Positions 36,753 through 64,000 of a stretch of 64,000 bases of DNA are shown piece after piece. The notes under the pieces were generated by a model. The model did no database searches. It was not told the origin of the DNA and saw nothing but the letters and a program-made list of their open reading frames with translations. This DNA comes from Candidatus Iainarchaeum sp. GTDB lineage: Archaea > Iainarchaeota > Iainarchaeia > Iainarchaeales > 1-14-0-10-31-34. Position 1 is the first letter of the stretch; the number at the start of each line of letters is the position of its first letter. The DNA is taken from the NCBI GenBank assembly GCA_040755695.1, contig JBFMAK010000003.1, positions 101,879-165,878 of the forward strand. The letters run 5' to 3'. The position numbers and the translations under genes are program-made.

Positions 36753-36789
36753 TAATTAGAATGCTGTTATAATATTTAAATATATAAGT

Positions 36790-39687: not shown

Positions 39688-39732
39688 GCAATTACCGTTC
39701 CCAAACTTTTTACAATTACCCCAAAATTCAAA

Positions 39733-42018: not shown

Positions 42019-42109
42019 TTAAACGCCACCTTTCTGGAATTCTATAGAAAAAGAATAAAACTTCTTAATAATGTTTATCTTTTTTAGAATAAGTTTTCAA
42101 AGAATAACA

Positions 42110-42631: not shown

Positions 42632-42657
42632 ACAATTAGGGTAAGTTATTATTAATT

Positions 42658-43218: not shown

Positions 43219-43223
43219 AAAAA

Positions 43224-44853: not shown

Positions 44854-44858
44854 AAAGA

Positions 44859-45467
44859 TTATTTCTGCAGCAACAGGAAGGCCTTGGCATTGTATAAAAT
44901 AATCCTTTCCTTTTGAACTTGCACAGCAAAAGAGGCGGCTTTAATTAATTGCCTTTTGAATTCGTTTTCTTCGATAATTAAAGGGGTTGCCTCCCTTCCA
45001 ATATTCAAGCTGATTGTCTGAAACAACCTGATTATTCTGTTTTTTTGGGTTGAATCTGCTTTTTTGACAATAAATAAAATATCAATGTCCGATGCTCTGG
45101 TTAAATGCCCTCTCGCAATTGACCCAAACAAAACAATTGAAACAAGATTGCTTCCAAAAATTTTTTTGAAGGAGTCAATTCTATCAATCAATTCTTTAAC
45201 TACTGCAAACTTTGAGGTAGCAGATAATTTTTCCTGCTCTTCAACCAACTCAAAAGCAGATATACTCAAAGGATTGTCTAGCACTGGAAAAAGCTGCCTA
45301 ATGTTCCCAACCTGCTTTGAATAAATAAGGTTTGCTTCCTCCAATTCATTCAAGATGCCTTTAATATCTCTAAGTGAACCAACCAATTTCATTAAAGCGT
45401 TAACGTGAATTTCGGGGTTCCTGGCAACCTCCGCAAGAATTCTTTGCCTTGACTTTAAAATCAACAT
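44859..45467 (-). CDS. Minimal nucleotidyltransferase (MNT) with N-terminal wHTH, HEPN-MNT module component
   Basis: LFGSIARGHLTRASDIDILFIV is a pol-beta-type NTase motif (GS...DxD). Confidence 0.7.
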   Translation of the reverse strand: MLILKSRQRILAEVARNPEIHVNALMKLVGSLRDIKGILNELEEANLIYSKQVGNIRQLFPVLDNPLSISAFELVEEQEKLSATSKFAVVKELIDRIDSFKKIFGSNLVSIVLFGSIARGHLTRASDIDILFIVKKADSTQKNRIIRLFQTISLNIGREATPLIIEENEFKRQLIKAASFAVQVQKERIILYNAKAFLLLQK

Positions 45468-45473
45468 ATTTAA

Positions 45474-46055
45474 TCACTTCAACAATTCATCAATTTCTTT
45501 AACGAAATTAAAAGCATTTCTCCCAATTGTTCTGACATCATCTTCCTTGACCTTAGTCACAGTATACAAAACACTGTTCCTGAACTGCCTGACTTTTCCA
45601 AGCAGATCTATTTCTTCATCAAAACTTTTTCTTGCGCTGCCAAACCCTTTAACAAACCTTTCGCCATGCAGTATCTCAAGCATCAAGGCAATAGTACAGA
45701 CGTGGTCCTTGGCGGCTTGACCCAAAAAATGAGAAGTAAAAGCCTTGGCTGCCATGTACATGCCAGCATAATAAGCGATAATTGCCCAATCAAGAAAATT
45801 GTCTGATTCAAAAGATTCTGCAGTCTGCAAATGATAATGCGCTTTAGCCAAAAAGGTTTTAGCGTCTTCCTTGGTGAATCTCTGAATTCTCTTTCTTTTA
45901 AAACATTCACTCAAAACCCTTTTCACTGCCCTTAAAGATTTAGGAATCTTTGAGTCCACGTCAACAAAACCCATAAAAACAACACCGCCTGCAAAAATAC
46001 ATATAATCATATGCAAAAATACATATAAAAGATTTTCGGGTGCCTTAAAAAGCAT
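45474..46055 (-). CDS. HEPN-domain protein (partner of MNT)
   Basis: All-helical protein next to the MNT gene, with a C-terminal RQFRNSVLYT-type segment. The pairing is typical of HEPN/MNT toxin-antitoxin-like modules. Confidence 0.55.
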   Translation of the reverse strand: MLFKAPENLLYVFLHMIICIFAGGVVFMGFVDVDSKIPKSLRAVKRVLSECFKRKRIQRFTKEDAKTFLAKAHYHLQTAESFESDNFLDWAIIAYYAGMYMAAKAFTSHFLGQAAKDHVCTIALMLEILHGERFVKGFGSARKSFDEEIDLLGKVRQFRNSVLYTVTKVKEDDVRTIGRNAFNFVKEIDELLK

Positions 46056-52100: not shown

Positions 52101-54050
52101 GAAAAACCTTATTTTGCCACAGTAGGCTGGAACGACAATGGAGATACTTTGAGTCTGGCTGACATAGAGAAAGACTACTACGACAAGCACAAAGACCAAG
52201 ACCCGCAGAATGTGCTAAAGAAAGAAATCAAAACAAAGAGATTAACTGGGATAGGCGCTTATACGGCGGGTTGTGTTGCTGGCGTTTTTGCAACCAATGC
52301 TGCATATACAGTAGTTGGGTTAGGATTTGGAAAAATTTTTTGGGATCTTATATTTGATTGCGGATTGCCCGCAGGAGTGGGAGCGGCAAATGAGTTTGGC
52401 GCATTTGAAGGCAACAGCCCATTAAAGCCTCTGAAAGGAATAATAAACTTTATTGGAGGCGGCATGAACATTGCAGGAAAAGTTGCAGGGGTTGGAGGCA
52501 CAGAAACACCCCCAACCTCTTCAGGGTATAACTTGGAAAACCAGAAATTGGATGACGGCACAGGAACAGAAAACTTAAGTGAACAAGATTTAAGCCTAAT
52601 ATATGGAACAACAGCTATAGATCTATTAGGGAGAGGAATAGCCGGTGGAGCAAAGAAATTAGTAACAAAAGCAGAAGTACCCCAGGCTCCAGCACCAGCA
52701 GTACAAGATTTTGCTAGTCTGGAGAAAAAAATAAACGACTTAGGTTTCTCTATACAAAAGCACAACAATGCAGTAATAAGTGCAAGAAAAGATTATGGAA
52801 AAACTTTATCCAGTAGTCTCCGCCCAGAAGAAGCTGTTGAAATAAGAAAAGCATCTAATCATTTCATAGAAGGAATTTTGAAAGAAGGGCAGGAAATTGA
52901 CGGCATGTTCAGCAAGATGGATAGAACAACGCTTGCAGCACATCAAAACGATTTATTAAAGTTTAAGAAAATGCTGGCTAACATAGAAATTGAGGAAGCA
53001 AAAGGTGGCTCAATAAGAATAATAAGCAAAAGTTCAATAACCAGAGTTCAGACAAGTGTATTAAGTGACCCTGCAGTCGTATCAGACATAGAAAATATAA
53101 TTAAAGCAGGGGGAAAACCCAAAGTCACAGCACTCAAAGAAGTATTATCTGTAATTAAAAGCCCTATTACAAGAGGGATCCTAAAATTTTTAGGTGGGCA
53201 GTTAGGAGGAAAGATTGTGTGGAACTGGTACTGGAAATCGCAAGGCCCAGTTTCTCCTTATGAAGTTACATCTGGAATAGTGAAGACTGAAAGAGGGGTA
53301 ACCTCAAATGTGGATGGAGGCGTTTTCGAGAAAAACCAGACATACAAAGTGTCTTTAAAGAAAGACGAGAAAACAGGCAAACCATTAATGCAATTCGAGA
53401 AAGTGGTAGACTTAAAAGATGTTGACAATGAAAGAAGGCTTGATGACTGCGACGGAAAGTTCCTGGAGCAAAAGCCCCCTGAAGCTAAGACTGCTTTATC
53501 ACAGGCATGTAATATCACAAAAGAAAGTGTAACACCCCAAAGCCTGAGCAGATGCGAGCCATTAAAGACGCCAATAGAAACATTTTCCAGTTCATTCACT
53601 GTTGACCCGCTAATGATGACATCAATTTACTGGCAGGAATCAAAATGCAATCCAAATGAAGCAGACGGAGGGCTATGCCAGCTTACATCAGAAAACAGGC
53701 AAGGGATTACAACAACAGAACAGCAAATACGGCAGTGCACTAAACTTTATTCTGATTGCCTGCAGAATGCCCGAGGCAAGGGCCTTTCAGGGGAAGAAGC
53801 AACGCAATACGCTTTATTCTGCTTCAACAGAGGCCAGGGAACACAGAATCTGGCACTTGACCTGAAATACAATCAAGGGAAAGACAATTATACTGCAATG
53901 GCTGAAGCGTGTTATACTTATTTCAAGAATGGCTGCGGCAAGCTATCAGCAAAAGACTGCTGTGAAGGGGAAGGATTTGGCGCAAGATATCCTGAAAAAG
54001 TTTTAGGAATTTATAATAAGGCGTGCAGCGAGATTGGAACTCCTGCATAA
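46155..54050 (+). CDS. Giant membrane-anchored surface protein (2631 aa) with repeated prealbumin/Ig-like domains, a Gly-rich hydrophobic segment and a C-terminal lytic-transglycosylase (SLT)-like domain
   Basis: N-terminal conserved motif plus TM (…GIPVYALVDPLEERGIPFFPLFIALIVILIGGFAAF). Repeated CarbopepD_reg-like units (VKVIDAETKQPLDKAIVQVFDEDSG...). C-terminal YWQESKCNPNEADGGLCQLT resembles the ES..NP.A...G.GLMQ motif of family-23 lytic transglycosylases. Confidence 0.8.
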   Translation: MQLIAEKLGAIYGKVENAFYGVLDFLDSKGIPVYALVDPLEERGIPFFPLFIALIVILIGGFAAFTLIGTGIETTLQLSIHDIQNKPLNEVNLTVYDDQGNTLLSQPNAEDSTSIKLPKVKPGAKISLSASKQGYETVQQELEVKGNLIDVSIAMQEAASTITPKIRFIDAQTKTAVPYVQAHWSFNDNSQEGSSDENGLIELTGIPLNEDILLEAIADGYEDYSDTIQFTSDTTKVIELIPVEGSLTGQSTLIVKVIDAETKQPLDKAIVQVFDEDSGSKLYEIITEQGVFSEKIDKGTVVRVTAEKDGYVKYDSSEEKKFLTLRNDTEDFGTIELEKGGSRIQVNVYDKDSKMLVIDAQVALFNDKGEIIDFNATEFGGFVEFKNLDPNSTYYIGTSAENYLTDRTKLIPKALQSINIELEKITADNSGKLNVYVNNSLGKPAGNAILNFYEEKEGEMLLLGIPAQKTSSDGAYSTTVKMNQNITVRATKEGEEGQAQITIEKKSNDVLIEMQKAKTAKTIKFFDEKGIPIIEGLLTIKSQAGEVLYDGNLNAEVIFDTAGNDFVLVQAQTPDGKTFEELVDTRNKDELSIEFNKAPMNELAPKIEFLGIFDLEENEIEGLTKGEEAILKFETQWIKGNYSGGVHIRVGPDNIKYIDSQYAGITGFEAPTQKYFLGRTYSPTPAPGAEGLDYSNRGQTGAMNKFLELYFNNPEGTKIIKVKVQARETIKEDKINLSYRAWSKINGQYNRNPADTILNEEEFNESKQGLYAETTSKEIKVFTTKPSCSEDLCANYLFYDASGRSYSTKEFIALKDNAYALEIELNARKTVNAIIKASTNPSAPKIAFTGKEEGEFTEIADNNNSDTSIETTENVTRAEAKKIRFYFKAKELGTSSIKVQAIAGSSSTEEDLYFKVFQEKEMSLTTIPSELSFGKDFEIQLKGKNENEPVKDAEIKIFNSEEKLVEHIVGDGKNGTGANGRYKVNNNLGLGSYRIEATSPYYTPISSEITIGKEDAFTLAEKISLFIPAQETSTAATESLSNNSGEDIDNISIEIIKEKNFPSTLEVTAETNPFMNKGEKAGIELKADYSGDPAVTVHGEADLIITGEIKGKFTAKAKSKIIIEYNKKLDGSCLQLDKTELKEYLIGQEGNSKDLELTIKNNCGMPLTLKSEITPKTTREESIEFILPEVRLKKDETQTIKIGVQNRIRRTFDAQENKDYTFFLKSFQITKSLPLTIILWDEKFSLSAPAQLVFFLTQSKANQKAVSFPQFVYVRNTGFADIKNLTLGIDRVDWQNVGIRILPEQAVPLLAKSQNLNPPYILVAEGDSAKNKFVKGRLLLNGFIEGKSYLLRTIDVFVYVSAGMSCLEAWSDEDLLFISSETGPVVIQKPIKIFNHCLEPVQITGLMAPGGSIPNTGNNQLYTNASNTTLMPDTLGEFTLTLSADRDWQGESTVILKGFGVNSLQEIDSSPLKISIKKGENVSTCNAGADQPCLSSDSQTIDVCGEGEGSKTIFWPKISQNNDCTQGYCDAKQLSVFLAEKLQQKIKEAKSRILTLSSSSLNLGGKCIEGYCTFGALGVKPESFEFYFQGDRLGTGIFENEIRQGKYDELLNPYIRESDEDITDIARSGFTGRTIIIPMQLKGCGRYTTKILGAVQEYNTELKPENIAIQVKLDGRRETTPECNNRIQNVMNFLPVDKGYDAGTKDASWAALIRSNSDLKDIAEDFGKALFETEKGRVVSSPSDNYIEFAVADLGQYILKIEIERKGAADEPKKVLVTINSNYNEASDEVTRKSIATEAGNIIRRLKNNKIDKGCISKNEDYFLISSVKDFKEEAALKLEGPKELKLYINKESCIDLNITTKIKTALDIAFNSSDFKSKAGITSIGLKKEKKDSIEEKISFEAGQLKLKGKDEKNKIYSASFQLCATADNEVQYADLSEVTVNIEGIDIEDHKITLKICGITPQDLYAEVRNNINNNAFKVGEKPYFATVGWNDNGDTLSLADIEKDYYDKHKDQDPQNVLKKEIKTKRLTGIGAYTAGCVAGVFATNAAYTVVGLGFGKIFWDLIFDCGLPAGVGAANEFGAFEGNSPLKPLKGIINFIGGGMNIAGKVAGVGGTETPPTSSGYNLENQKLDDGTGTENLSEQDLSLIYGTTAIDLLGRGIAGGAKKLVTKAEVPQAPAPAVQDFASLEKKINDLGFSIQKHNNAVISARKDYGKTLSSSLRPEEAVEIRKASNHFIEGILKEGQEIDGMFSKMDRTTLAAHQNDLLKFKKMLANIEIEEAKGGSIRIISKSSITRVQTSVLSDPAVVSDIENIIKAGGKPKVTALKEVLSVIKSPITRGILKFLGGQLGGKIVWNWYWKSQGPVSPYEVTSGIVKTERGVTSNVDGGVFEKNQTYKVSLKKDEKTGKPLMQFEKVVDLKDVDNERRLDDCDGKFLEQKPPEAKTALSQACNITKESVTPQSLSRCEPLKTPIETFSSSFTVDPLMMTSIYWQESKCNPNEADGGLCQLTSENRQGITTTEQQIRQCTKLYSDCLQNARGKGLSGEEATQYALFCFNRGQGTQNLALDLKYNQGKDNYTAMAEACYTYFKNGCGKLSAKDCCEGEGFGARYPEKVLGIYNKACSEIGTPA

Positions 54051-54071: not shown

Positions 54072-55721
54072 ATGAAAAGCAAAGGCTTTACATTATTCAC
54101 TGCTCTGGTTTCTTTTGTGCTGATTGTGCTAAGCATTCTTTTAGTGCAGGGAATGATTAATGCAGAGAGGGCGAGAATTGACACTATAACTGCAATAGAA
54201 GAGCAGGCTAAAATGCAGGAGATCGCAGACCATGAAAGAAACGATGCGCTGCAATTGCTTGTGTACGACATCAGGTTTGAGCTGGAGGACTACTTCAACA
54301 GGGAAGACAAGATAGGCCCTTTATGCTATAATTGCAGCTTTGATGAATTAGTCCAGCAGTTTGCTGAAAGCAAGTTCGGCGCCTGCTCCAGAGAAATGCC
54401 TGCAGAAGAATGCAACAGGACAGGGGGGGAACAATTAGCGAATTTTGTTGCAGCAACCTTGTACGGGCAATTAAGCTCGACAAAAACAATAGGCTCTTAT
54501 TACATTAAAACTGACCTGGGAGATGAAACAGAGCTCAAGTCAAGCCTGAAAAACTTGATTAATAAAAGTGCAGGGCAAGGATCTTTTTTTAAAGTAATTG
54601 AATGCGAGAACGGAGACCCTAAAAACTGCACTGGAACATTCTATCTTTCCTTGAGGGTAGGAGACCTTTCAAACGAAGAATACGAGAAGCTGCCCAGAAT
54701 TTCAGTCACAAACACGCAGACAGGCAGAGTGCTTCAAGTTGCAGTCCTTCCAAGAAGCAACTTCCAGATTTATGTGCCTTTAAGATTCTTCAAGGCAGTG
54801 GCAGAAGCAAGGGCACTAGTAATGGAGTACGATAAAGAGGATTCTGGAAGCTGGAGCAGTAACATGGGGTTATTCAGCCCGAGAATACACAACGAATTAG
54901 AAGAATTGAAATTAGGAATGTGCGACAAAGACATTTGCAATTATAGAACAAATCCCTATAAGCCCCCAGACAGTGAAACAATGAGCACGGCATGGTGCCC
55001 TAATGAATTGGCCCCCCCGCCACTAGATCAAAGCATAAATTGCGATAGTCTATTATTTTCTTTAGGGTTTTGCGATGGCAGAATTACAAAATATAACCCA
55101 TCGAAAAAGAAAGACATAGAAGATGCAGTAATAGAATTGACAAAAAAGAGGTTGTATAATTTAATTGACAATAAACTTAACATTTACCTAAATAATGACC
55201 CTAATTTTAAATATGTTGGTAGCGAAATTACCCCTGCTGTCGAAGTAAAAAATTCAAAGATTATTTTTTCGAGCGGAAGCTTAGCATCAGTATCTGGAAA
55301 TAAAGATTGGTCTTACAGGGACCCTTGCTCTTACACTAATACTGGAGTTTGGCTTGAAAATAATAAAATAAAAGGAGAAAAAATTTCTGGTGAATGCGAA
55401 GGAGATCAATCAGGCACTTTAGGTCACGGTTTTTGCGGGGAACTCTCATCAATTGATGTTGTATTTAAGTTCAATGAATTAAATCCGCTTTATGCAGTAA
55501 ACAAAAAAAAACCTGAACACAAATATTCAATCTGGTTTGAAGACAATCTTTATTCATCTTTTACAGCAAAATATGAAAGAAAAGCAACAAACAGTGACTG
55601 TGCACTTAATGGAGAACCTCAGCCTATTTCAGGCGGATGCAATTATGTTGCTGGGTGGAGTTGTTTTGTTGAAATTCCAATGAGTGGCTCATACGAAGGA
55701 TGCCAACCAAAAGCCCCTTAA
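54072..55721 (+). CDS. Cys-rich pilin-like secreted protein (550 aa) with class III/type IV-pilin-type signal peptide
   Basis: MKSKG|FTLFTALVSFVLIVLSILL (a G|FTL-type prepilin motif). Many Cys residues. GGTG RBS upstream of the ATG at 54072. Confidence 0.6.
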   Translation: MKSKGFTLFTALVSFVLIVLSILLVQGMINAERARIDTITAIEEQAKMQEIADHERNDALQLLVYDIRFELEDYFNREDKIGPLCYNCSFDELVQQFAESKFGACSREMPAEECNRTGGEQLANFVAATLYGQLSSTKTIGSYYIKTDLGDETELKSSLKNLINKSAGQGSFFKVIECENGDPKNCTGTFYLSLRVGDLSNEEYEKLPRISVTNTQTGRVLQVAVLPRSNFQIYVPLRFFKAVAEARALVMEYDKEDSGSWSSNMGLFSPRIHNELEELKLGMCDKDICNYRTNPYKPPDSETMSTAWCPNELAPPPLDQSINCDSLLFSLGFCDGRITKYNPSKKKDIEDAVIELTKKRLYNLIDNKLNIYLNNDPNFKYVGSEITPAVEVKNSKIIFSSGSLASVSGNKDWSYRDPCSYTNTGVWLENNKIKGEKISGECEGDQSGTLGHGFCGELSSIDVVFKFNELNPLYAVNKKKPEHKYSIWFEDNLYSSFTAKYERKATNSDCALNGEPQPISGGCNYVAGWSCFVEIPMSGSYEGCQPKAP

Positions 55722-55906: not shown

Positions 55907-58900
55907 ATGGGGTTGAAGGAATTCTACCACAGCATTGAAGACGCTTACTATGGGTTAATGGACCAACTGGACAGGGCGGGAATTCCAGTATACAAAATAA
56001 TTGACGCAATCGAAGCAAAAAACATTCCGTCATTTCCGTTCTTCTTATTGTTTGTAATAATAGTGCTGTGCGGCCTCTACTTCTTTGTTGCAGTCCCAAT
56101 GCTTGGGCCTTCAATGAATTCTTTTTCCTTGGTTGTGGCAAGCGACAAAGGCCCAATAGAAAATGCTGTAGTGAAACTCCAGGTTGACGACAACATTACA
56201 ACCTATGTTACTGACGACAAAGGAAAGGTCTCCCTCACAATAACCAAAGGCAAAGGATTCCAGCTGACAATATCAAAAGAAGGATTTGAAGAAAAAACGC
56301 AGACCTTCAGCGCAAACGAATCAGGAGCAACAATCACATTAAAGGGCCAGACAAAAACAGTTACTGTAAGGCTGCTCAAGGCAGGGACAAGCGAAATAAT
56401 AAGCCAGGACGTAAGCGTTTCATTCTATTGTTCAGGCAACTCCGATTATTATAAAACTGAAACATCAAGCGACGGAGTAATAGAATTAGCTGATGTTCCA
56501 TATGACTGCGGGACAATCACAGCAGACTCAAGGGAGTTAAGCTGTACAGACTGCAGTTTTGACTCAAGTGACAGCAGTTCCTCAATCTACTTGCAAGAGG
56601 AAGAGCAAGGAAAAGGCACTGTAACATTAAGCGTGCAGGACGAAAACCTGGAGCCAATAGCAGGAATTATTGCAAGGATTATTCCAAACAATGGGAGCAC
56701 AACAGAGGAAACGAGGTGTACAACAACAGGAACAGGCGCGTGCACTGCAAGCAATGTGCCTTTCGGGGAATACTATTTCACTCTGACAGACAGCAGCGAA
56801 AAATATGAGTTCTATGATTCTTCTCTGAAAAACAATTTCATTACAGTCAATTCTTCAAACACTAACGCTTACTTAAGCACCATAACATTAGGCGAAAAGG
56901 TTGTAGGCCAAATAAAAGTAAAAATAATTGATGATTCAACAAAAGAAGCAGTTAATGGAGCTGAAGTGAAATTATTCAAGGACGGAAAAGAGCTGTACAC
57001 AAAAAATTCAGGTGAAGACGGGATTGTAGTATTTAATGTAAGCGAAAATGTTTCCTACTTCCTTACAGTGAATCATGTTGATTACTTGATTCCTGGCCCG
57101 TTGGCAGGAATAAAGCCGAGCGATGAAACAAGAGAAATAGAATTAAGCAGGGCTGACTCAACAAACAGCCAGCGGATTGAAGTTCAAGTATTGGACGAAA
57201 AAGAAGAGCCAGTAGAGAACGCAAAAGTATTCCTGAAGGACGCTGACAGGCCTTCAGTGATAATAGGCCAAATGCTTGTAACAGGGGTAGATGGAAGAAC
57301 CCAATTCGAGAGAGTGAAAGAAGGAAGGTATTTAGTTTACGCGGAAAAAACAGGGTTCAAAGGAAAAAATTCCGATGAAATAGTTACAGTAAAACCAAGG
57401 CAGCCTGCCTCTACAATAGTTAACTTGACAATAGGCCAGGGCACAATAGAATTAAAGGTATTGAACGAAGAACAGCAGGGCATTCAGGGGGCAACAATCA
57501 AAGTAATGGACTACTTTACAGGCACAGAAATTGCAACAGAGCTTACAGACACGCAGGGAGAAAAAACATTGACTTTAAGGGCAGACAAGAAAGTTTACTT
57601 GATTGCAAGCGAAAGCACCAAAGCAGATTATACTACAACCCCAATCCAGTTATTCCAGGGCGCCCAAAGCAATACGATAACCATGGTGGACCAAAGCAAT
57701 GCAAAAAACTTCAAGGTATTATTGAACGGAATTTATGGTATGGATGAACAGGCAGTAAGCGAAGGACAGGGAGAAACAGCAACAGTGCTTGACTCAGGCC
57801 AAAGCTTTAAAGTGAAATTGCAATTAATCCTGCCTAATGCATCCTACTCAAGCGCTGGAATACATTTAAGGACTGGAGCAGACACAGAAAACCAGGATAA
57901 CATAATGGAGCAGGACGACTTATACTTAAAGGATATTACTGCACCAAATGCAAGGATAATTAAAGGAACTTCCTTCAATCCTTCAAACGGTTACTCGATA
58001 GACTCGCAGCATTTAACTTCAGGGAACTCTAAATGGGCTAATGTAATTTTTTCTAATCCGAGAGCAGGCGTAATTGAAGCAGAAGGCGTAATTCAATTAA
58101 GGGGAAGCCCTGCAAGCACTCAAATGAATCTGGCTTACAGGGGCTGGGCAGTATCAGGCGGAACATACTTAAGGGACCCTTACGATTCAGAACTAAAAGA
58201 ATCTGAAAGCACTGCAACAAAACAGTCCTTGTACGCAAAAGCAAAATACGAGCCAATAAGAACTGGAAGCTCTTCACTCTGCACTGAGAAGTTCTGCTAC
58301 TGGTTCAGGATAACAGACCAGAGCACTGGAGTGCAGACAACTGTATCGGACAGCATGCCTGCAGAAATGTCCAATTCCTATCAACTTGAATTCAATTTAA
58401 TAAGCTTGAGCGAACAGAAATTCTATGAAGTCTCATTAAGCATTGCAAATGACAGCCAAGGAATTGAGTTTAAGAATTTTAATATCGCGGGAGAAAACAA
58501 GAATTTAAAGGCATCAAAGATTTTGAAGCCTTTGGGTGAAATAAGCAAAGGAGAAAAGATTTCAGGGACAATAGAATTCACTACAAAAAAAGAAGGGGTA
58601 AACAAGATAGACTTCGGCTTGAGCGCCAAAACCTCTCTTGGAACAGAAAAAGCATTCTTTAAGTCAATCAAAATTGACGTGCAGGCAGCAGGGGAATTCG
58701 AATTACAGGTTGTGCCTGCAGTACTAGTTTCATTAATACAGAATGATATAATAGTGAAGGCAGTTGATTTGTTAGACGGAAGCCCTGTAAGCGATGCCAC
58801 CATAAAAGTAATGAAAAACAATAATAATTTGTTTTCAGGGACAACAAATTCGGATGGAATTTACTCTTTCTCTCTTGAGCCAATGAGCACGGGAACAAAG

Positions 58901-61900
58901 GTTTCAATAACTGGAAACAAGATAGGATTCAAGGAAGCGGAAAAAGAGCTTACGACAACAGAACAGGTCCTGCTTGTAAGCCCTGAAAGCATTAGCGAGA
59001 GCTTCAATGCAGCAAAAGATGTAACCATAAAAAGAGACCTTATATTAAGGAACACAACTGAAGTGCCTTTGACTGTAAGGGCAATTGAATTCAGCGACGA
59101 CTTCAGGAAAATGGTGAACTTAAATTTAAGCGACGGAATAATAGGCCAGGAAATGACAAGCAGCGTGGATTACAACACATTGCTCTCAATGAGGATGACC
59201 CCTGCAGGAAGAAATATTGAAGAATTAACTGAATTGAACGGAAAAATAATTATCACGCTGGAAAGCATCCAGATTGGAAGGCAGTGGGCGCAGGAAATCC
59301 CATTAAACATTACAATAGGATTAGGGAATGAAGTAGATGACCCTTCATGTTTAAGCATAAGCCCTAATGAATGGAGCATTTCAATTGAAGGAGGAAAAAT
59401 TAAAACAAAATCTTTTGCCCTGGCAAACAACTGCAAGGTTGAAGGAAAACCCCTTGAATTAAAGAGGCTGCAGGCAAGGATTGCATGGGAGAACGGCAAT
59501 GAGACAGGAACATTCACTTCAAAGCTTGAGGGAAGCTCACTGCAGTTAGGCACAAGCTGGAAACAAATTTCAGGAACATTAAAGCCTTCAAGAGGGGACG
59601 GAACAGGAATAGAAATCCAGTTCAAGGCAGACGACATAAGCTCTGGAACTGGAGAACCAAAAATTGAATTCAAGGCAGAGAACAGGACACAGCAAGGCAT
59701 TGAAGAATTAAGCACTTCAATTAAAACAAGCCTTAACGTAAGCAAATTAACAGAATGCGTGCAGGTAATTCCCACAGGGCAGCTGAGAGTAGAATTAGGG
59801 CCATACAATTTAGGTTACGGCCTTTACCCGCAGCAATTCGGGTACAATCCTTATCAGCAAGCACCATACTATTACCAGCAATACAATTCATTTTATCCGG
59901 GCACATCATACGGAGGATACGGAAACAACCCTAATGTAGTAATGTACCCAGAGCAATTAAACCAAAGATATCCTTACTCTTATTTCTCAGAGCCATTAAC
60001 CAATTCATTCTATTACGACAACCAGTACAATTATGCTTTCCTGCCGCCGAATTCTGGAAGAAACAATTTCAGAGTGCAGAACAACTGCTCTAATACAGTG
60101 CAGGTAAGCATTGAGCCAGACCAGGCACTAGGAGTATCAAAGAATACCTTGACATTAGAGCCAGGCAAAGACGAGCAAATAAATGTTTACTCGACATTAT
60201 ACGCAGGAAATTACGGCATAATAGTAAGAGCGCAATTAAAGGATTCAACAGAAGGCAAAGCAGACATCACAAGAATTCCAGTACTGGTGGAATCAGAATA
60301 CTTCAGGGATTACAGGGATTGCATCTTCCTCAACAAAAGAACATTCCAATTCAATGACTTCATAGCAAAGCCCGACACAGGAATAATATTCAACAAATGC
60401 TATGACGTGGGAGTAAGGCTGAATTATGACTCAATTGGAATCACTTGGGGCTGGAACTACAGCAATACTCCAGGCAACACTGGCAGCAACCAGCCATCGC
60501 AGCAATCAATATCTGTAACGCCAGGAATAATAAAAGACATAAGAGTGCTTGAACTCCTTGAAAAGCCAGGGCCAGACAACAAGATAATACAGCAATTAGA
60601 ATTCGAAATGATTAAAGACATAGAAAAAAGCTACAGGAATGACATACTGGAAAAATTCAAGGCAATAGATGCAACAAAAACGCCTATTACAGAAATAGGA
60701 ATATACAGGGCAAAAATAACAGCAGGATACTATGAGGTTGAAGCACCTGCCAATCTCTCAGTGAAATTCATCAACAGGGTAGGCGCAAGCGATTCATTAA
60801 ATTTTAACATAACAATAGAAGACAAGTGGGCTGCCCTTCCATTGATATCAGAAGAAATTAATTTCGGTGACCCAGCCATAACAAAATTCCAGAGCTGCAT
60901 TAACGGCGATGCCTTAAATGTAAAAAATTACTGGGCGGGAAGAGGAAACGAAGGCTGCCTTGAAGAAAACCAATTCATTAATGATATTTACGAGCACGAA
61001 TCGGACACTAAAGTAATGAAAATTGCCAAGCAAGGAGGCTGCGGGAGCGTTGACAGTTTAAGCCAGATAAGCCCGCAGACCTACACCGACTCTGCAAGCG
61101 GGCTAAAATTAACATTCCAGACAGTAGACGGAGGCCACAACATAAAGCTTAGAGTGGACAAAAGCAATATGACAACACAAGAAGCAACAATTAACACTAC
61201 AATCTACGCAAACCTTACAAGAATGACCCCTTCAGGAAACCAGAAAGTATATATTCCAGTCAACGTGTGCGTGAAATTGAAGGAAGCCCCTCCAATTGCC
61301 TTGACGCCTGAAGAAAAGATATGCAAGGCAAAAATAGTGAGCCCGGAAGGGCTTTCATTGGAAGAATTGAAAAAGAAGATAGAGGAATTGTGCGCCAGCC
61401 TTCCGGCAGAAGGAAAGCAGAAAGTGGAGGACGCATTGAAAGCACTCTTATCCAAAGAAGAGAAATGCGATGAAGGCACTACAGGAAAAGGCGCTTCAAT
61501 AAAATACGGTTTCGACAAATTAAGCTTTACGTGGAATCCGGAAAAGATAGACGGGCAGTTCTGTTACGGCAGCTTCTGCGATGCAGCGCAGAACTCCATT
61601 GCCTCAGTGAAGAAACTAGAGGAAATCAAGAAATTCATTTCAGGAAAAGAAACAGAATTAACTGCAGCATGCGAAAAAGAAAAAACGTTCTTGCCAATTG
61701 GGGGAACTATTCATATTGAAAGCACGGCATGCAATAATAAGGATGCAGCCAATCTTTACAGGTTCGCAGTAAGCCAGGCAAGAGTTGTTGATAAAATCAC
61801 GGCAAACGAATTGGTGTTCTTTACAGGAGAAGACGGAATAATTGAGGGAAGCAAAATTGATTCCTCCGACGAGTACATCAAGACAATGGCAAGCAATGTA

Positions 61901-63544
61901 CTTAAATTTGACACTATGGCAAATGTCATTGAATCAACGCAGAATATCCTGAACGTCCTAAAAGATAAAACTGGCGGAAAAACGGACAGCATTGTAATGG
62001 AAATAAATTATAACGATGCAACAAAGCAGTACTACGCCAGCCACTTCGTGCCATTGGGAATAGAAGACCTGCAAGGGTTCACGCAAAAGAAGTATGTGAT
62101 GACATTCAATGAATTCTCTGCATTCCACAAGGCATTAAAGGCAGTAATTGACGGAAAAATAGCGTGCAACAGCACAACAACCACAAACTGCTACAGTCCA
62201 GACAAAAAGAATTATTATATTTCAGGTCTGACAGCGCCAGTAACAGCAGAATTCCTGAGGTCATTGTACAACAACCTTTCATTCAAGAACGGAATAAGGA
62301 ATGCGCCTGAATTAAGCAGTGAAGAAATACAGACAATACTGAAGGAAGGAAAATTGAAGGTCACAACAAGCGAAATTAATTCAATTGACAAGTTTGAAAA
62401 AATGTACAAAGAAAACATTGACTCAAATGTCCTGCTGATGAAGGACTCTTACACCAATGACTTCAAGGAAGACTTCTTGATTTCTTACTCAAAAATTGGG
62501 ACAGAAAAATTAGACCAGTTCGACAGCGATTGGAGCTTTATTTTAGGGAACAACATGCAGGCAAGCGTTGAAGCAGGAAGATACGAGCAGGTGATAAATT
62601 ATAATTGGGAGACAAAGAAAGTGAGTGTAAAACTTACTCAGCAAGAAAATCTTGAACAGATGGATAAGAGGACAGGAAACAGCTACAAAGACAATTACTT
62701 CTTCTCATTGCCATTCGACGGAAAACTTGGGTTAGTAAACACCACTTACTCAAGAGACGGCTACGGAGTAGGCTATGGCACATTGAATGCCTCATTCTAT
62801 GTAAACAAAGATGAGGGCAATGTGAACACCTACAATGTAACAGCAGAAAAAACAACAGGAAGCAGCAATGGATTAATGAAGTTTAATGCGGATTTAAGGC
62901 AGAAATTCGAGCAGACAAGAAATGGAACAGTGCTTTCAGTTGACGGCACTGCAGGCAAATTTGAATTCACTCCCTCTACTCCAATCATTGTTTCAGCAGA
63001 ATTAAATGCTTCAACAGCAGAAAAGAGGGGAATGCTGTATGAATTGGAAATGAATTCAAAGGAATTAGGCATAGCAGACGAAACTAATCTGACAAACATT
63101 TTCAGCTGGACTTCATGCTCCGGAAGTCCAAAGAATGACTCAAAAACAAAAATGAATGCACTGGAATCAAAAGCAGGCACTGTAGAGCATTACGGCTTGA
63201 TTGAAAACCCGGGCAGTGCAATAACTTATGCTTCTTTATCATTCATGCCTTCAAGCTCGAATTACTTCATGGTGTACCAGTTGTTCAAGAACGTGAAGAA
63301 CTTCACTGTATTCCACTCCTATAATGAAAGCACTGGGAAATTCACTGAATCTGTTTTAAGCGAGTCAAGCAAGAGGGTTGGAAAAAGCGATGTAACAGGC
63401 GCTACAATCCAGGGAGAAAACATAAAAGAATGGGTTAACAGAATAGAAAAAAGCCATGTGTGCGTCAAGCCTTTGAGCCAAGGAATTGAATTAAGCTGGA
63501 ATAAAGCAAAACTGCTGGAGGAAGCAGGAACACAGTGCAAGTGA
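55907..63544 (+). CDS. Giant membrane-anchored surface protein (2545 aa), paralogue of 46155..54050
   Basis: N-terminus MGLKEFYHSIEDAYYGLMDQLDRAGIPVYKIIDAIEAKNIPSFPFFLLFVIIVLCGLYFFVA matches the N-termini of the other two giants. Repeated prealbumin-like domains. Internal Q/Y/N-rich low-complexity segment. Confidence 0.8.
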   Translation: MGLKEFYHSIEDAYYGLMDQLDRAGIPVYKIIDAIEAKNIPSFPFFLLFVIIVLCGLYFFVAVPMLGPSMNSFSLVVASDKGPIENAVVKLQVDDNITTYVTDDKGKVSLTITKGKGFQLTISKEGFEEKTQTFSANESGATITLKGQTKTVTVRLLKAGTSEIISQDVSVSFYCSGNSDYYKTETSSDGVIELADVPYDCGTITADSRELSCTDCSFDSSDSSSSIYLQEEEQGKGTVTLSVQDENLEPIAGIIARIIPNNGSTTEETRCTTTGTGACTASNVPFGEYYFTLTDSSEKYEFYDSSLKNNFITVNSSNTNAYLSTITLGEKVVGQIKVKIIDDSTKEAVNGAEVKLFKDGKELYTKNSGEDGIVVFNVSENVSYFLTVNHVDYLIPGPLAGIKPSDETREIELSRADSTNSQRIEVQVLDEKEEPVENAKVFLKDADRPSVIIGQMLVTGVDGRTQFERVKEGRYLVYAEKTGFKGKNSDEIVTVKPRQPASTIVNLTIGQGTIELKVLNEEQQGIQGATIKVMDYFTGTEIATELTDTQGEKTLTLRADKKVYLIASESTKADYTTTPIQLFQGAQSNTITMVDQSNAKNFKVLLNGIYGMDEQAVSEGQGETATVLDSGQSFKVKLQLILPNASYSSAGIHLRTGADTENQDNIMEQDDLYLKDITAPNARIIKGTSFNPSNGYSIDSQHLTSGNSKWANVIFSNPRAGVIEAEGVIQLRGSPASTQMNLAYRGWAVSGGTYLRDPYDSELKESESTATKQSLYAKAKYEPIRTGSSSLCTEKFCYWFRITDQSTGVQTTVSDSMPAEMSNSYQLEFNLISLSEQKFYEVSLSIANDSQGIEFKNFNIAGENKNLKASKILKPLGEISKGEKISGTIEFTTKKEGVNKIDFGLSAKTSLGTEKAFFKSIKIDVQAAGEFELQVVPAVLVSLIQNDIIVKAVDLLDGSPVSDATIKVMKNNNNLFSGTTNSDGIYSFSLEPMSTGTKVSITGNKIGFKEAEKELTTTEQVLLVSPESISESFNAAKDVTIKRDLILRNTTEVPLTVRAIEFSDDFRKMVNLNLSDGIIGQEMTSSVDYNTLLSMRMTPAGRNIEELTELNGKIIITLESIQIGRQWAQEIPLNITIGLGNEVDDPSCLSISPNEWSISIEGGKIKTKSFALANNCKVEGKPLELKRLQARIAWENGNETGTFTSKLEGSSLQLGTSWKQISGTLKPSRGDGTGIEIQFKADDISSGTGEPKIEFKAENRTQQGIEELSTSIKTSLNVSKLTECVQVIPTGQLRVELGPYNLGYGLYPQQFGYNPYQQAPYYYQQYNSFYPGTSYGGYGNNPNVVMYPEQLNQRYPYSYFSEPLTNSFYYDNQYNYAFLPPNSGRNNFRVQNNCSNTVQVSIEPDQALGVSKNTLTLEPGKDEQINVYSTLYAGNYGIIVRAQLKDSTEGKADITRIPVLVESEYFRDYRDCIFLNKRTFQFNDFIAKPDTGIIFNKCYDVGVRLNYDSIGITWGWNYSNTPGNTGSNQPSQQSISVTPGIIKDIRVLELLEKPGPDNKIIQQLEFEMIKDIEKSYRNDILEKFKAIDATKTPITEIGIYRAKITAGYYEVEAPANLSVKFINRVGASDSLNFNITIEDKWAALPLISEEINFGDPAITKFQSCINGDALNVKNYWAGRGNEGCLEENQFINDIYEHESDTKVMKIAKQGGCGSVDSLSQISPQTYTDSASGLKLTFQTVDGGHNIKLRVDKSNMTTQEATINTTIYANLTRMTPSGNQKVYIPVNVCVKLKEAPPIALTPEEKICKAKIVSPEGLSLEELKKKIEELCASLPAEGKQKVEDALKALLSKEEKCDEGTTGKGASIKYGFDKLSFTWNPEKIDGQFCYGSFCDAAQNSIASVKKLEEIKKFISGKETELTAACEKEKTFLPIGGTIHIESTACNNKDAANLYRFAVSQARVVDKITANELVFFTGEDGIIEGSKIDSSDEYIKTMASNVLKFDTMANVIESTQNILNVLKDKTGGKTDSIVMEINYNDATKQYYASHFVPLGIEDLQGFTQKKYVMTFNEFSAFHKALKAVIDGKIACNSTTTTNCYSPDKKNYYISGLTAPVTAEFLRSLYNNLSFKNGIRNAPELSSEEIQTILKEGKLKVTTSEINSIDKFEKMYKENIDSNVLLMKDSYTNDFKEDFLISYSKIGTEKLDQFDSDWSFILGNNMQASVEAGRYEQVINYNWETKKVSVKLTQQENLEQMDKRTGNSYKDNYFFSLPFDGKLGLVNTTYSRDGYGVGYGTLNASFYVNKDEGNVNTYNVTAEKTTGSSNGLMKFNADLRQKFEQTRNGTVLSVDGTAGKFEFTPSTPIIVSAELNASTAEKRGMLYELEMNSKELGIADETNLTNIFSWTSCSGSPKNDSKTKMNALESKAGTVEHYGLIENPGSAITYASLSFMPSSSNYFMVYQLFKNVKNFTVFHSYNESTGKFTESVLSESSKRVGKSDVTGATIQGENIKEWVNRIEKSHVCVKPLSQGIELSWNKAKLLEEAGTQCK

Positions 63545-63558
63545 ACGGTGAAAGAAAA

Positions 63559-64000
63559 TGGGAGTAACAGACTTTTATTACGCGCTCGAAGACAAATACT
63601 ATGATTTAATGGACAGGATTGACCGGGTCATCCCAATACACAAGATAATTGAGCCAATAGACAAGGTCTTCCCCTCATTCATTCTGTTCATTATAATTAT
63701 CCTGCTTCTCATAGGCTCAGGGATTTACTTGGCATTAGGAGGACTGCCAGGAAAAGACGTGCAATTAACATTCCATGTAACAGACCAGAGCAGAAGCAGC
63801 CTGAACGCAATAAGCATTAGCGCAACACATGATTCAAAAACCGAAAGCCTTACAACAGACATGACAGGAAAAACAATGCCCTTGACAGTGAAAGCAGACA
63901 CAATTGTTTCATACGAGATAGATGAAAGCTCCTACGAAAAATTAAGCGATTCAATTAAAGTCGAAGAAAACAAGACATTAACGCTCACCCTTTCGCCGAA
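63559..64000 (+). CDS. Third giant-protein paralogue, 3' truncated by window edge
   Basis: MGVTDFYYALEDKYYDLMDRIDRVIPIHKIIEPIDKVFPSFILFIIIILLLIGSGIYLALGG has the same N-terminal motif plus TM. A prealbumin-like domain starts (LTFHVTDQSRSS...). Confidence 0.6.

What the first reader, a model, noticed from the sequence alone, without database searches (positions are those of the whole stretch)
59800..60060. Prion-like Q/Y/N/G-rich low-complexity segment inside giant protein 2
The stretch YGLYPQQFGYNPYQQAPYYYQQYNSFYPGTSYGGYGNNPNVVMYPEQLNQRYPYSYF...YYDNQYNYAF is an aromatic and Gln/Asn-rich low-complexity island. The protein is otherwise built from globular beta domains. The island could mediate self-association, adhesion or phase separation at the cell surface.
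Basis: seen in the sequence. Interest (0 to 1): 0.5.

Follow-up and report, generated by a model that had tools for sequence, protein, structure and literature searches.

The report
Tyrosine-rich disordered loop in archaeal giant protein
A giant cell-surface protein of a tiny DPANN archaeon carries a conserved, floppy, uncharged, tyrosine-rich loop of about 84 residues sticking out of one of its beta-sandwich domains; it most likely acts as a sticky patch, but this has not been shown by experiment.

Summary
Residues 1299-1382 (nt 59801-60052) of the 2545-aa ORF 55907-63544(+) are 25% Tyr against 3.5% elsewhere and almost free of charged and aliphatic residues. No other stretch like it occurs in any frame of the window.

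It is an insertion in the first beta-hairpin of a PapD/ASH-like beta-sandwich. AlphaFold2 scores it pLDDT 27-44 between flanks at about 90.

It is neither an artefact nor hypervariable:
- The 75%-identical orthologue keeps it at 89% identity with no indels (dN/dS 0.09, dS 0.72).
- 102 of 147 family representatives carry a 41-220 aa island at this hairpin.
- About 15 positions are conserved, and Cys occurs as 0 or 2 per island, apart from two islands with 3.

Island-less relatives are orthologues of the adjacent paralogue. The island therefore marks one paralogue in a conserved cluster (giant, pilin-like protein, giant 2, giant 3, giant 4) next to type IV pilus genes in Iainarchaeota (Diapherotrites).

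"Prion-like" holds for composition only: a PAPA-like score is positive, but Q+N is 22 per 80 residues, below the threshold of 30.

My best reading is a multivalent aromatic "sticker" loop for adhesion or self-association. This is inferred, not shown.

The parts
55907..63544 (+). Giant protein 2 (2545 aa), the host of the island. It is identical to NCBI MAG protein AB1467_05970 from Candidatus Diapherotrites.
   Evidence: ORF list and translation. 100% match to P0001. Pfam CarboxypepD_reg 3.3e-25, SpaA and bMG3.
56033..56104 (+). Single N-terminal transmembrane anchor (about aa 43-66). It follows a conserved roughly 40-aa N-terminal motif shared by all the giant paralogues.
   Evidence: Kyte-Doolittle scan: the only strong hydrophobic segment is aa 35-71, maximum 3.03. 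The motif is seen in the paralogues.
59351..59773 (+). Preceding PapD/ASH-like beta-sandwich domain (about aa 1149-1289).
   Evidence: AF2 pLDDT about 90, all-beta. Foldseek matches to tandem ASH/PapD-like domains.
59756..59758 (+). Cys1284, invariant. Together with Cys1394 it flanks the hairpin that carries the island.
   Evidence: Invariant columns C170 and C280 in alignment A1. Cys positions listed.
59783..59794 (+). Strand A (LRVE, aa 1293-1296) of the host beta-sandwich, immediately before the island.
   Evidence: AF2 strand E179-182 of the model, which starts at aa 1115.
59801..60052 (+). The island: an 84-residue Tyr/Asn/Gln/Pro/Gly-rich, nearly uncharged, predicted-disordered loop (aa 1299-1382).
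   Evidence: AF2 pLDDT 27-30 with 12 sequences and 41-61 with 43 sequences. Composition statistics. dN/dS 0.09.
59801..59842 (+). Conserved entry motif P-Y-N-x-G-[YFW]-G-x-Y-x3-F-G (aa 1299-1312).
   Evidence: In alignment A2: G1303 in 43/43, G1305 in 39/43, aromatic at 1304 in 93%, N1301 in 32/43, P1299 in 34/43. A looser form of the motif, [NDGST]-x-G-x-[GNDAQS], is found near the start of 88 of 102 family islands.
59969..60001 (+). Conserved exit-side motif Y-P-x-S-x-[YF]-x-x-P-[FY]-Y (aa 1355-1365; here YPYSYFSEPLT).
   Evidence: In alignment A2: P1356 in 41/43, aromatic at 1355 and at 1360 in 88%, P1363 in 32/43. A strict regular expression matches 33 of 102 islands.
60038..60040 (+). Conserved aromatic residue (F1378; Trp in most relatives) just before the loop closes.
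   Evidence: Aromatic in 88% of A2 rows, W in 26 of 43.
60059..60292 (+). Remainder of the host PapD/ASH-like beta-sandwich (aa 1385-1462), starting with strand B (NNFRVQNNC).
   Evidence: AF2 pLDDT 87-98, strands E101-178 of model 2. N1392 and C1394 are invariant in 43/43 rows.
46155..54050 (+). Giant protein 1 (2631 aa). It is a paralogue at 25% identity over the N-terminal 970 aa and has no island.
   Evidence: BLASTP and composition scan. Syntenic in relatives.
54072..55721 (+). Type IV pilin-like protein of 549 aa (N-terminus MKSKGFTLFTALVSFVLIV) between the two giants.
   Evidence: N-terminal sequence. Weak ComGF pilin hit. The same N-terminus is conserved in L001, L026 and L027.
63558..64000 (+). 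Start of giant protein 3, the island-less paralogue. It runs off the end of the window.
   Evidence: Translation shows the family N-terminal motif and matches the N-terminus of L001 giant 3. Its orthologues are the representatives that have a 2-4 aa turn instead of an island.

Best explanation
The island is an intrinsically disordered, nearly charge-free, tyrosine-rich loop of about 84 residues. It is inserted in the first beta-hairpin (strands A-B) of a PapD/ASH-like Ig beta-sandwich, roughly half-way along a 2545-aa surface protein. That protein is held in the membrane by a single N-terminal anchor.

The host organism is an Iainarchaeota (Diapherotrites, DPANN) archaeon. The island marks one specific paralogue, "giant 2", of a conserved gene cluster: giant 1, pilin-like protein, giant 2, giant 3, giant 4. 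The cluster lies next to archaeal type IV pilus genes.

I propose the loop works as a multivalent "sticker-and-spacer" patch. Evenly spaced Tyr/Phe/Trp side chains, set in polar Gly/Asn/Gln/Ser/Pro spacers, would project sideways from the rigid beta-sandwich stalk. They would make many weak aromatic and hydrogen-bond contacts. The partner could be identical loops on neighbouring molecules (a cohesive coat) or another surface such as a partner cell's envelope, lipids or a cluster partner.

Shown:
- composition and position in the fold;
- predicted disorder;
- purifying selection;
- conservation across the family;
- restriction to one paralogue.

Inferred:
- extracellular location;
- adhesive or associative function;
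- identity of the partner.
For: - Composition and uniqueness.
- Disorder: the loop scores pLDDT 27-44 between two beta-sandwiches at pLDDT about 90, in two AF2 runs with 12 and 43 sequences.
- Fold: the flanking domains match tandem ASH/PapD-like domains.
- Position: paralogous proteins have a 2-4 aa turn (GE, KGE, PGE) at the same place, so the island is a hairpin-loop insertion.
- Selection against the 75%-identical orthologue: 89% identity, no indels, dN/dS 0.09, compared with 0.17 for the whole protein. dS is 0.72, and 7 of 18 conserved Tyr use a different codon.
- Selection among orthologues about 60% identical: no gap columns and 47-68% identity in the island.
- Family spread: 102 of 147 representatives carry a 41-220 aa island. 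Medians are 20% aromatic, 16% Gly, 17% Asn+Gln and 5% charged.
- Patterning: aromatic residues are spaced more evenly than in shuffles in 97% of 99 islands (median z = -1.63, none above +1.64). Even spacing of aromatic stickers is described for prion-like low-complexity domains (PMC8638251; 10.1101/2021.01.01.425046).
- Cys count per island is 0 (59), 2 (41) or 3 (2), with the cysteines at the loop base. This fits a stapled, protruding loop in an oxidising, extracellular setting.
- Interfacial free energy: the Wimley-White value of -5.3 kcal/mol is the lowest 75-aa window in the protein, whose mean is +18.8.
- Precedent: the aromatic-rich 57-aa loop in the beta-prism of Vibrio cholerae Bap1 is absent from paralogue RbmC and mediates non-specific adhesion to lipids and abiotic surfaces (PMC10102183, PMC12965690).
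- Context: type IV pilus ATPase, platform and pilin-like genes lie next to the cluster, and the cluster order is conserved at 32-75% identity.
Against: - There is no experimental or structural evidence for any binding activity.
- For this window's own island the aromatic spacing is not significantly uniform (z = -0.5). The family-wide trend comes from related sequences, and short GYG repeats inflate it.
- About 15 strongly conserved positions and very low dN/dS fit a specific interaction, or a fold that AF2 cannot see, better than generic stickiness.
- Extracellular topology is inferred. It rests on one N-terminal TM segment, paired cysteines, 33 N-glycosylation sequons and adhesin-type domains.
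- Nothing is published on this protein family.
Confidence: 0.5

Rival explanations
1. The island is a specific recognition module that folds on binding. Its conserved short motifs (PYNxGYGxY...FG, PY, YPxSxYxxPFY, W) would dock onto one defined partner. Candidates are the pilin-like protein, a paralogous giant or a host surface protein. The low-complexity middle would be only a tether.
For: - About 15 positions are conserved across 43 sequences at 22-40% identity, including G1303 in 43/43, P1320 in 42/43 and P1356 in 41/43.
- dN/dS is 0.09, lower than in the flanking folded domains at 0.19-0.29.
- There are no indels within sub-clades.
- The island is restricted to one paralogue of a conserved multi-protein cluster.
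- pLDDT rises slightly (51-61) at the exit end of the loop.
Against: - AF2 finds no structure even with 43 sequences.
- Length varies from 41 to 220 aa between sub-clades, through expansion of GYG-type repeats.
- MAFFT can over-align tyrosines in a low-complexity region.
- No partner has been identified.
Confidence: 0.2
2. The island is a true prion or functional-amyloid domain. It would convert to a self-templating cross-beta state and link molecules into fibres or a rigid matrix on the cell surface.
For: - A PAPA-like score of 0.114 exceeds the 0.05 threshold, with FoldIndex below 0.
- Archaeal PLAAC candidates that formed amyloid and propagated in yeast had higher Tyr/Phe content and P-Q next to aromatics (10.1101/2020.07.20.212902). 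This island contains YPQQFGYNPYQQAPYYYQQY.
Against: - Q+N is 22 per 80 aa, below the criterion of 30. The family maximum is 25, and none of 102 islands pass.
- There are 11 prolines in 88 residues, and the longest stretch free of Pro and Gly is 16 aa.
- Both ends are pinned in one beta-hairpin, and 40% of relatives staple them with a disulfide. This disfavours long in-register stacking.
- Aromatic residues are evenly dispersed across the family. Dispersed rather than clustered aromatics are associated with liquid-like rather than solid assemblies (PMC8638251).
- PLAAC was not run.
Confidence: 0.08
3. The island is a membrane-active loop. Its aromatic and glycine-rich segments would partition into the interface of a partner cell's membrane, in the manner of a fusion loop or the Bap1 peptide, and help a DPANN cell attach to or bridge with its host.
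For: - The Wimley-White interfacial free energy is the lowest in the protein (-5.3 kcal/mol).
- The loop has a G-[WYF]-G...F-G entry motif and a disulfide-bracketed base in many relatives.
- The Bap1 57-aa loop binds lipid through an aromatic core that becomes a beta-hairpin (PMC12965690).
- DPANN archaea are generally regarded as host-attached, and pilus genes are adjacent.
Against: - The family median interfacial energy per residue is about zero (-0.02 kcal/mol), which is neutral rather than membrane-seeking.
- Aliphatic residues are almost absent, polar Asn and Gln are abundant, and prolines are frequent.
- There is no alternating amphipathic pattern.
- Whether this Iainarchaeota lineage has a host at all is not established here.
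Confidence: 0.1
4. The island is a tolerated, functionless low-complexity insertion or a passive entropic spacer.
For: The segment is predicted disordered. Its length differs among sub-clades.
Against: - Purifying selection is stronger than the protein average.
- Motifs are conserved.
- The island is retained in about 100 divergent representatives.
- The paired Cys pattern is maintained.
- A side loop of a hairpin is not in the N-to-C force path, so it cannot act as a spring in series (inference).
Confidence: 0.05

Closest known systems
Vibrio cholerae Bap1 57-amino-acid adhesive loop (PMC10102183, PMC12965690)
   Same: Both are aromatic-rich, flexible loops inserted into a beta-rich domain of a surface or matrix protein. 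Both are absent from the paralogue (RbmC there, giants 1 and 3 here). Both are conserved in sequence among relatives and combine a central conserved motif with repeat-like periphery.
   Different: The host fold differs (beta-prism there, PapD/ASH-like sandwich here) and there is no homology. Bap1-57aa is 12.7% Lys with about 18% aromatic residues (Tyr and Trp). This island has no Lys, one Arg, and 25% Tyr plus 7% Phe. It is also longer: 84 aa here and up to 220 aa in relatives. Bap1's function is shown by experiment; here it is inferred.
Aromatic sticker-and-spacer prion-like low-complexity domains such as FUS and hnRNPA1 (PMC8638251; 10.1101/2021.01.01.425046)
   Same: Tyr/Phe stickers sit in Gly/Ser/Asn/Gln spacers. 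Charge is very low, the segment is predicted disordered, and aromatic spacing is more even than random across the family.
   Different: Those domains are cytoplasmic or nuclear, terminal, and found in RNA-binding proteins. This one is presumably extracellular and is a closed loop inside an Ig-like domain. Its aromatic fraction is much higher (32% here, about 20% family median, against about 15% in FUS). It also has more Pro, and it has conserved motifs.
Yeast Sup35 N domain and PLAAC-type prion domains, including archaeal candidates (10.1101/2020.07.20.212902)
   Same: The Q/N/Y/G/P-rich composition is similar, and YQQYNP-like strings occur in both. JSD to Sup35N is 0.12. The PAPA-like score is above threshold.
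   Different: Q+N is 24% against about 44% in Sup35N, and the criterion of 30 Q/N per 80 aa is not met. The island is not terminal and has no oligopeptide repeats at the DNA or protein level. Amyloid or prion behaviour is untested.
Extracellular Tyr/Gly/Asn/Gln/Pro-rich structural and adhesive proteins: mussel foot protein 3, wheat HMW glutenin repeats, Gly-Tyr-rich cuticle and keratin-associated proteins (recalled from my own knowledge, not checked here)
   Same: These are extracellular, aromatic-rich and poor in aliphatic residues. Their cohesion or adhesion comes from Tyr-mediated contacts.
   Different: Those are whole proteins or long tandem repeats. Many depend on DOPA or dityrosine chemistry, for which there is no evidence in this archaeon. 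The resemblance is compositional only.

Membership tests
Q/N-rich prion domain (Michelitsch-Weissman / Alberti-PLAAC sense) | At least 30 Gln+Asn in an 80-residue window | tested here: not met
   The maximum is 22 per 80 aa, at aa 1317. None of 102 family islands reaches 30, and the family maximum is 25.
Q/N-rich prion domain (Michelitsch-Weissman / Alberti-PLAAC sense) | Predicted intrinsic disorder | tested here: met
   AF2 pLDDT 27-44 across the island in two runs. FoldIndex is negative.
Q/N-rich prion domain (Michelitsch-Weissman / Alberti-PLAAC sense) | Compositional prion propensity above threshold (PAPA >= 0.05, or a PLAAC core of at least 60 aa) | tested here: inconclusive
   My re-implementation of PAPA gives 0.114 over aa 1310-1376.
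Q/N-rich prion domain (Michelitsch-Weissman / Alberti-PLAAC sense) | Forms self-templating amyloid | not testable with these tools
   This needs ThT or Congo-red assays, or a Sup35-swap assay.
Aromatic sticker-and-spacer low-complexity domain (FUS/hnRNPA1 type) | Aromatic stickers in polar Gly/Ser/Asn/Gln spacers with low net charge | tested here: met
   Tyr+Phe 32%, Asn+Gln+Gly+Ser+Pro 49%, charged 5%. Pooled family composition: Y 14%, G 17%, N 10%, S 11%.
Aromatic sticker-and-spacer low-complexity domain (FUS/hnRNPA1 type) | Aromatic residues spaced more evenly than expected by chance | tested here: inconclusive
   Across the family, 97% of 99 islands have z < 0, with median -1.63. For this window's island alone z = -0.53. 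The sequences are related, so they are not independent tests.
Aromatic sticker-and-spacer low-complexity domain (FUS/hnRNPA1 type) | Undergoes phase separation or gelation | not testable with these tools
   This needs purified protein.
Bap1-57aa-type adhesive loop | Aromatic-rich loop inserted in a beta-rich domain and absent from the paralogue | tested here: met
   The loop lies between strands A and B. The paralogue family has a 2-4 aa turn at the same place.
Bap1-57aa-type adhesive loop | Abundant Lys or other positive charge next to the aromatic residues | tested here: not met
   No Lys and one Arg in 75 residues.
Bap1-57aa-type adhesive loop | Sequence homology to Bap1 | not tested
   The host fold differs (beta-prism against PapD/ASH-like), so homology is not expected.
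PapD/ASH-like Ig beta-sandwich (the host domain) | Seven-to-eight-stranded sandwich with structural similarity to ASH or PapD domains | tested here: met
   Foldseek E = 6e-9 to 1e-6 against ASH-domain proteins of the ciliary central pair (7sqc, 9ijj), the CEP192 SPD-2 domain (9fh8, 7ptb) and the CfaB pilin. TM-scores are low (0.2-0.34) because the model holds two domains plus the loop.
CarboxypepD_reg / prealbumin-like repeat surface protein (the whole protein) | Pfam domains above the gathering threshold | tested here: met
   PF13620 scores 88.7 bits (cut-off 32.3), PF17802 42.4 (23.1) and PF11974 39.5 (34.9).

The most novel reading that the evidence does not exclude
The loop is the working surface of a DPANN-specific contact apparatus. 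It would be an extracellular, disulfide-stapled, prion-like sticker loop that forms a gel or condensate-like adhesive layer, or inserts into a partner membrane. It would sit at the interface between an Iainarchaeota cell and its host or substrate, and act together with the co-clustered giant paralogues and the type IV pilus-like system. That would be a case of low-complexity-domain cohesion working outside the cell in archaeal cell-cell interaction.
Probability: 0.12. Interest if true: 0.8.

Novelty: new variant of a known kind. Interest (0 to 1): 0.4.

Why it matters
DPANN archaea are tiny and mostly uncultured, and how they touch other cells or surfaces is largely unknown. This work defines a large, uncharacterised family of proteins of about 2500 aa, arranged in a conserved cluster next to pilus genes in Iainarchaeota. 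At least 246 clusters at 50% identity match the central region of the protein around the island. Within one paralogue, the work pinpoints a small, conserved, experimentally tractable element. An 84-residue peptide can be synthesised and tested for self-association, lipid binding and cell binding. If it proves adhesive or cohesive, it would extend the sticker-and-spacer principle of intracellular low-complexity domains to an archaeal cell surface. It would also give a handle, such as an antibody or a labelled peptide, for finding the partner of these organisms. If it proves inert, it is still a clean sequence marker for this paralogue.

Tried and rejected
- Tandem Repeats Finder on 59500-60400 found nothing, so the island is not a DNA-level repeat.
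- Assembly artefact or frameshift is rejected. The same sequence is in an NCBI MAG, and the orthologue is in ENA, Logan and JGI assemblies, with synonymous differences.
- Hypervariability is rejected.
- Depletion of N-glycosylation sequons in the islands gave no clear signal. Sequons occur at 0.135 per Asn in islands against 0.169 elsewhere, and 138 were observed against 158 expected.
- The search for homologous proteins with the domain alignment A1 returned a single hit and was wasted.
- A PDB sequence search of the C-terminal 1045 aa found nothing. NCBIfam added nothing useful for the giants.
- The SLT-like motif at the C-terminus of giant 1 was not confirmed by Pfam or PDB sequence search.
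- Literature searches for this family (DPANN giant proteins, carboxypeptidase regulatory-like, Iainarchaeota pili) found nothing specific.
- A pore-forming beta-hairpin (aerolysin-type pre-stem loop) was considered and rejected by reasoning. There is no alternating amphipathic pattern, aliphatic residues are almost absent and there are 11 prolines.
- An entropic spring or elastomer was considered and rejected, because a hairpin side loop is not in series with the chain (inference).
- A PGF-CTERM or archaeosortase substrate was considered and rejected. The C-terminus (...EEAGTQCK) has no such signal, although an exosortase-like gene lies nearby.
Full report
**1. What is there.**
The finding lies in a 2545-codon ORF, window 55907-63544 on the + strand. 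The quoted peptide is present exactly at aa 1304-1378, nt 59816-60040. Tyr makes up 19 of 75 residues, against 3.5% in the rest of the protein. The binomial P is 8.6e-12, or 2e-8 after correcting for all windows. Only 4 residues are charged (background 23.6%) and 5 are Ile, Leu or Val (background 21%). Ile, Lys, Cys, His and Trp are absent. Sequence entropy is among the 12 lowest of 2470 windows. No other window in any of the six frames of the 64 kb combines Tyr >= 15% with charged residues <= 10%. There is no tandem repeat at the DNA level.

**2. Organism and protein.**
The ORF is identical to a hypothetical protein of a Candidatus Diapherotrites MAG. A scan of GTDB genomes with the central domains found 23 loci. 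Most named records are Candidatus Iainarchaeum or Diapherotrites. One MAG is labelled Micrarchaeota, two contigs sit in "Chloroflexi" bins that are probably mis-binned, and nine records are labelled only as unclassified archaeon.

The protein has one strong hydrophobic segment, at about aa 43-66, after a conserved N-terminal motif. CarboxypepD_reg, SpaA and bMG3 beta-sandwich domains follow. There are 31 cysteines, mostly in nearby pairs, and 33 N-glycosylation sequons outside the island. From this I infer a membrane-anchored, extracellular stalk. The topology was not tested directly. The last roughly 1000 residues match nothing in Pfam, NCBIfam or PDB sequences.

**3. Anatomy of the island.**
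AlphaFold2 on aa 1115-1500 with 12 homologues gives two beta-sandwiches at pLDDT about 90. Between them, aa 1299-1382 score 27-30 with no secondary structure. A second run on aa 1285-1480 with 43 homologues still gives 41-44 for aa 1301-1366 and 51-61 for aa 1367-1384, between flanks at 92-98.

The loop lies between strand A (LRVE, aa 1293-1296) and strand B (NNFRVQNNC, from aa 1386) of the second sandwich. Foldseek places the pair of domains with tandem ASH/PapD-like Ig domains: ciliary central-pair proteins, the CEP192 SPD-2 domain and the CfaB pilin. The island is therefore a side loop of a hairpin and not a linker between domains. Invariant Cys1284 and Cys1394 flank it.

**4. Conservation.**
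That test fails.

- The full-length orthologue P0002 (75% identical) occurs in ENA, Logan and JGI assemblies. In the island it is 89% identical with no indel. There dN/dS is 0.09, against 0.17 for the whole protein and 0.19-0.29 for the flanking domains. dS in the island is 0.72, and 7 of 18 conserved Tyr use a different codon.
- Four orthologues that are 58-61% identical to each other have islands of identical length (102 aa), at 47-68% identity.
- An exhaustive phmmer search with aa 1051-1650 against 1.84 billion cluster representatives found 246 relatives, most of those listed being 2300-3000 aa long.
- I anchored on the conserved flanks to measure the loop in each relative. Of 147 representatives, 102 have a 41-220 aa insertion at this hairpin (median 95 aa). 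Median composition is 20% aromatic, 16% Gly, 17% Asn+Gln, 17% Ser+Thr and 5% charged. Another 40 have a 2-4 aa turn such as GE, KGE or PGE.

**5. It is not merely compositional.**
In a 43-sequence alignment at 22-40% identity, several positions inside the loop are conserved:

- P1299, N1301, G1303 (43/43), an aromatic at 1304 (93%), G1305 (39/43), Y1307 and F1311;
- P1320 (42/43) and Y1321;
- aromatics at 1329 and 1330;
- Y1355, P1356 (41/43), an aromatic at 1360, P1363, [FY]1364 and Y1365;
- an aromatic at 1378, which is Trp in 26 of 43.

MAFFT may over-align tyrosines in such a region, but the invariant Gly and Pro columns are robust.

Cys occurs either not at all (59 islands) or exactly twice (41 islands); two islands have three. 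In the two-Cys islands, one Cys sits at each end of the loop, as in SCPYNTGYG...SWNCG. This both-or-neither pattern implies a disulfide that staples the loop base in about 40% of the family. The window's protein belongs to the Cys-free group.

**6. Paralogue specificity and context.**
The short-turn representatives are orthologues of the neighbouring paralogue. Giant 3 of the related contig L001 is 80% identical to P0155 and 40-49% identical to other short-turn members. In three relatives at 75%, 37% and 32% identity the gene order is the same. It runs giant 1, a 492-597 aa protein, island-bearing giant 2, giant 3, giant 4, all on one strand. In one relative (L026) a 159-aa gene sits between giant 2 and giant 3.

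Only giant 2 carries the island. In the window the cluster reads:

- giant 1 at 46155-54050;
- the mid-size protein at 54072-55721;
- giant 2 at 55907-63544;
- giant 3 starting at 63558 and running off the end.

The mid-size protein has a type IV pilin-like N-terminus, MKSKGFTLFTALVSFVLIV, which is conserved in the relatives. Upstream lie a T2SSE-type ATPase (39733-42018), a T2SSF-type platform protein (37312-39687) and small proteins with pilin-like KGQ-plus-hydrophobic N-termini (33644-36752). A second ATPase/platform set lies at 22304-25540. The island-bearing protein is thus part of a conserved surface module next to archaeal type IV pilus genes.

**7. Is it prion-like?**
A PAPA-style calculation singles out aa 1310-1376 as the only region with score above 0.05 (maximum 0.114) and negative FoldIndex. 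By the same calculation 60 of 102 family islands pass.

The composition is closer to Sup35N (JSD 0.12) and the FUS low-complexity domain (0.19) than to the rest of its own protein (0.24).

Against the label, the classical Q/N-rich criterion fails: 22 Q+N per 80 aa, with a family maximum of 25. There are 11 prolines in 88 residues, and the longest Pro/Gly-free run is 16 aa. The segment is also a closed loop. PLAAC was not available. Work on archaeal PLAAC candidates found that Tyr/Phe content and P-Q next to aromatics distinguished those that formed amyloid and propagated in yeast (10.1101/2020.07.20.212902). Amyloid capacity therefore cannot be excluded. I rate it unlikely as the native function.

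**8. Mechanism proposed.**
Across 99 aromatic-rich islands, aromatic residues are more evenly spaced than in shuffled versions in 97% of cases. The median z is -1.63, 49% fall below -1.64 and none rise above +1.64. Even spacing of aromatic stickers in polar spacers is the pattern described for prion-like low-complexity domains that form reversible multivalent networks rather than solids (PMC8638251; 10.1101/2021.01.01.425046). There are caveats. The sequences are related, GYG repeats contribute to the signal, and the window's own island is not significant by itself (z = -0.5).

The island has the most favourable Wimley-White interfacial free energy in the protein (-5.3 kcal/mol, against a mean of +18.8 per 75 aa). 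The family median per residue is about neutral.

The closest experimentally studied analogue is the 57-aa aromatic-rich loop in the beta-prism of Vibrio cholerae Bap1. That loop is absent from paralogue RbmC and is responsible for non-specific adhesion to lipids and abiotic surfaces (PMC10102183, PMC12965690). Unlike it, the island lacks lysine.

I therefore propose a protruding, multivalent aromatic sticker loop for adhesion or self-association (confidence about 0.5). The rivals are:

- a motif-driven specific partner site (0.2);
- a membrane-active loop (0.1);
- a true amyloid or prion domain (0.08);
- a functionless insertion (0.05).

Disorder, conservation, loop position and paralogue specificity are shown. 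Extracellular location and every functional statement are inferred.

**9. Novelty and verdict.**
Aromatic low-complexity domains and adhesive loops are known kinds. This instance differs in being presumably extracellular, embedded as a sometimes disulfide-stapled loop in an Ig-like domain, rich in conserved motifs, and diagnostic of one paralogue of an uncharacterised giant-protein cluster in a DPANN lineage. I found no literature on the family. I rate it a new variant of a known kind, of moderate interest (0.4). It is a well-defined, testable element, but nothing yet shows what it does.

Noticed in passing
window 63558-64000 (+): A third giant gene starts here (MGVTDFYYALEDKYYDLMDRIDRVIPIHKIIEPID...) and runs off the end of the window. 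It is the orthologue of the 2232-aa island-less paralogue in L001. Relatives have a fourth giant gene after it.
   Followed up: yes
window 54072-55721 (+): The 549-aa protein between the two giants has a type IV pilin-like N-terminus (MKSKGFTLFTALVSFVLIV). The listed TTG start at 54054 is probably wrong. The same N-terminus is conserved in the syntenic genes of L001, L026 and L027. No Pfam family matches it.
   Followed up: partly
window 33644-44219 (-) and 22304-25540 (+): There are two sets of archaeal type IV pilus-like machinery. Each has a T2SSE ATPase and T2SSF platform proteins. The first set also has several small ORFs with KGQ-plus-hydrophobic pilin-like N-termini. They lie directly upstream of the giant-gene cluster.
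   Followed up: partly
window 55907-56032, 46155-46280 and 63558-63690; L001, L026 and L027 giants: All the giant paralogues share a conserved N-terminal segment of about 40 aa before the TM helix (...Y..LEDKYY..LD..D...P[IV]YK[IV][IV]D.[IL][DE]...PSF). It may be a cytoplasmic sorting or assembly signal. It is not a class III (pilin) signal peptide.
   Followed up: no
window 53900-54050 (+), C-terminus of giant 1: The string SIYWQESKCNPNEADGGLCQLT resembles the catalytic motif of SLT lytic transglycosylases. Neither Pfam nor a PDB sequence search confirms it.
   Followed up: partly
L026 about 3260-3440 (giant 1 paralogue of a 32%-identical relative): That lineage's giant 1 has a milder Tyr/Asn/Thr-rich stretch (…NNDYYPTQYAYQNPASNQGTS…TYNPNTYNPAYGF) just after a CLEFD…SLQIFL strand. 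This suggests that similar loops arose independently in another hairpin of a paralogue.
   Followed up: no
window 44284-46055: An exosortase/archaeosortase-like membrane protein (44284-44853, +) and a HEPN plus nucleotidyltransferase pair (44859-46055, -) lie between the pilus genes and giant 1. The giants have no PGF-CTERM-type sorting signal.
   Followed up: no
L012, L013 (GTDB contigs DAOWAC010000014.1, JAFCCG010000009.1): Two contigs encode full-length relatives of this archaeal protein (33% identity over the whole query) but sit in MAGs labelled Chloroflexota/Chloroflexi. They are probably mis-binned DPANN contigs.
   Followed up: no
window 27803-32296 (-): A 1497-aa ORF next to the pilus genes has no Pfam or NCBIfam match.
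   Followed up: no
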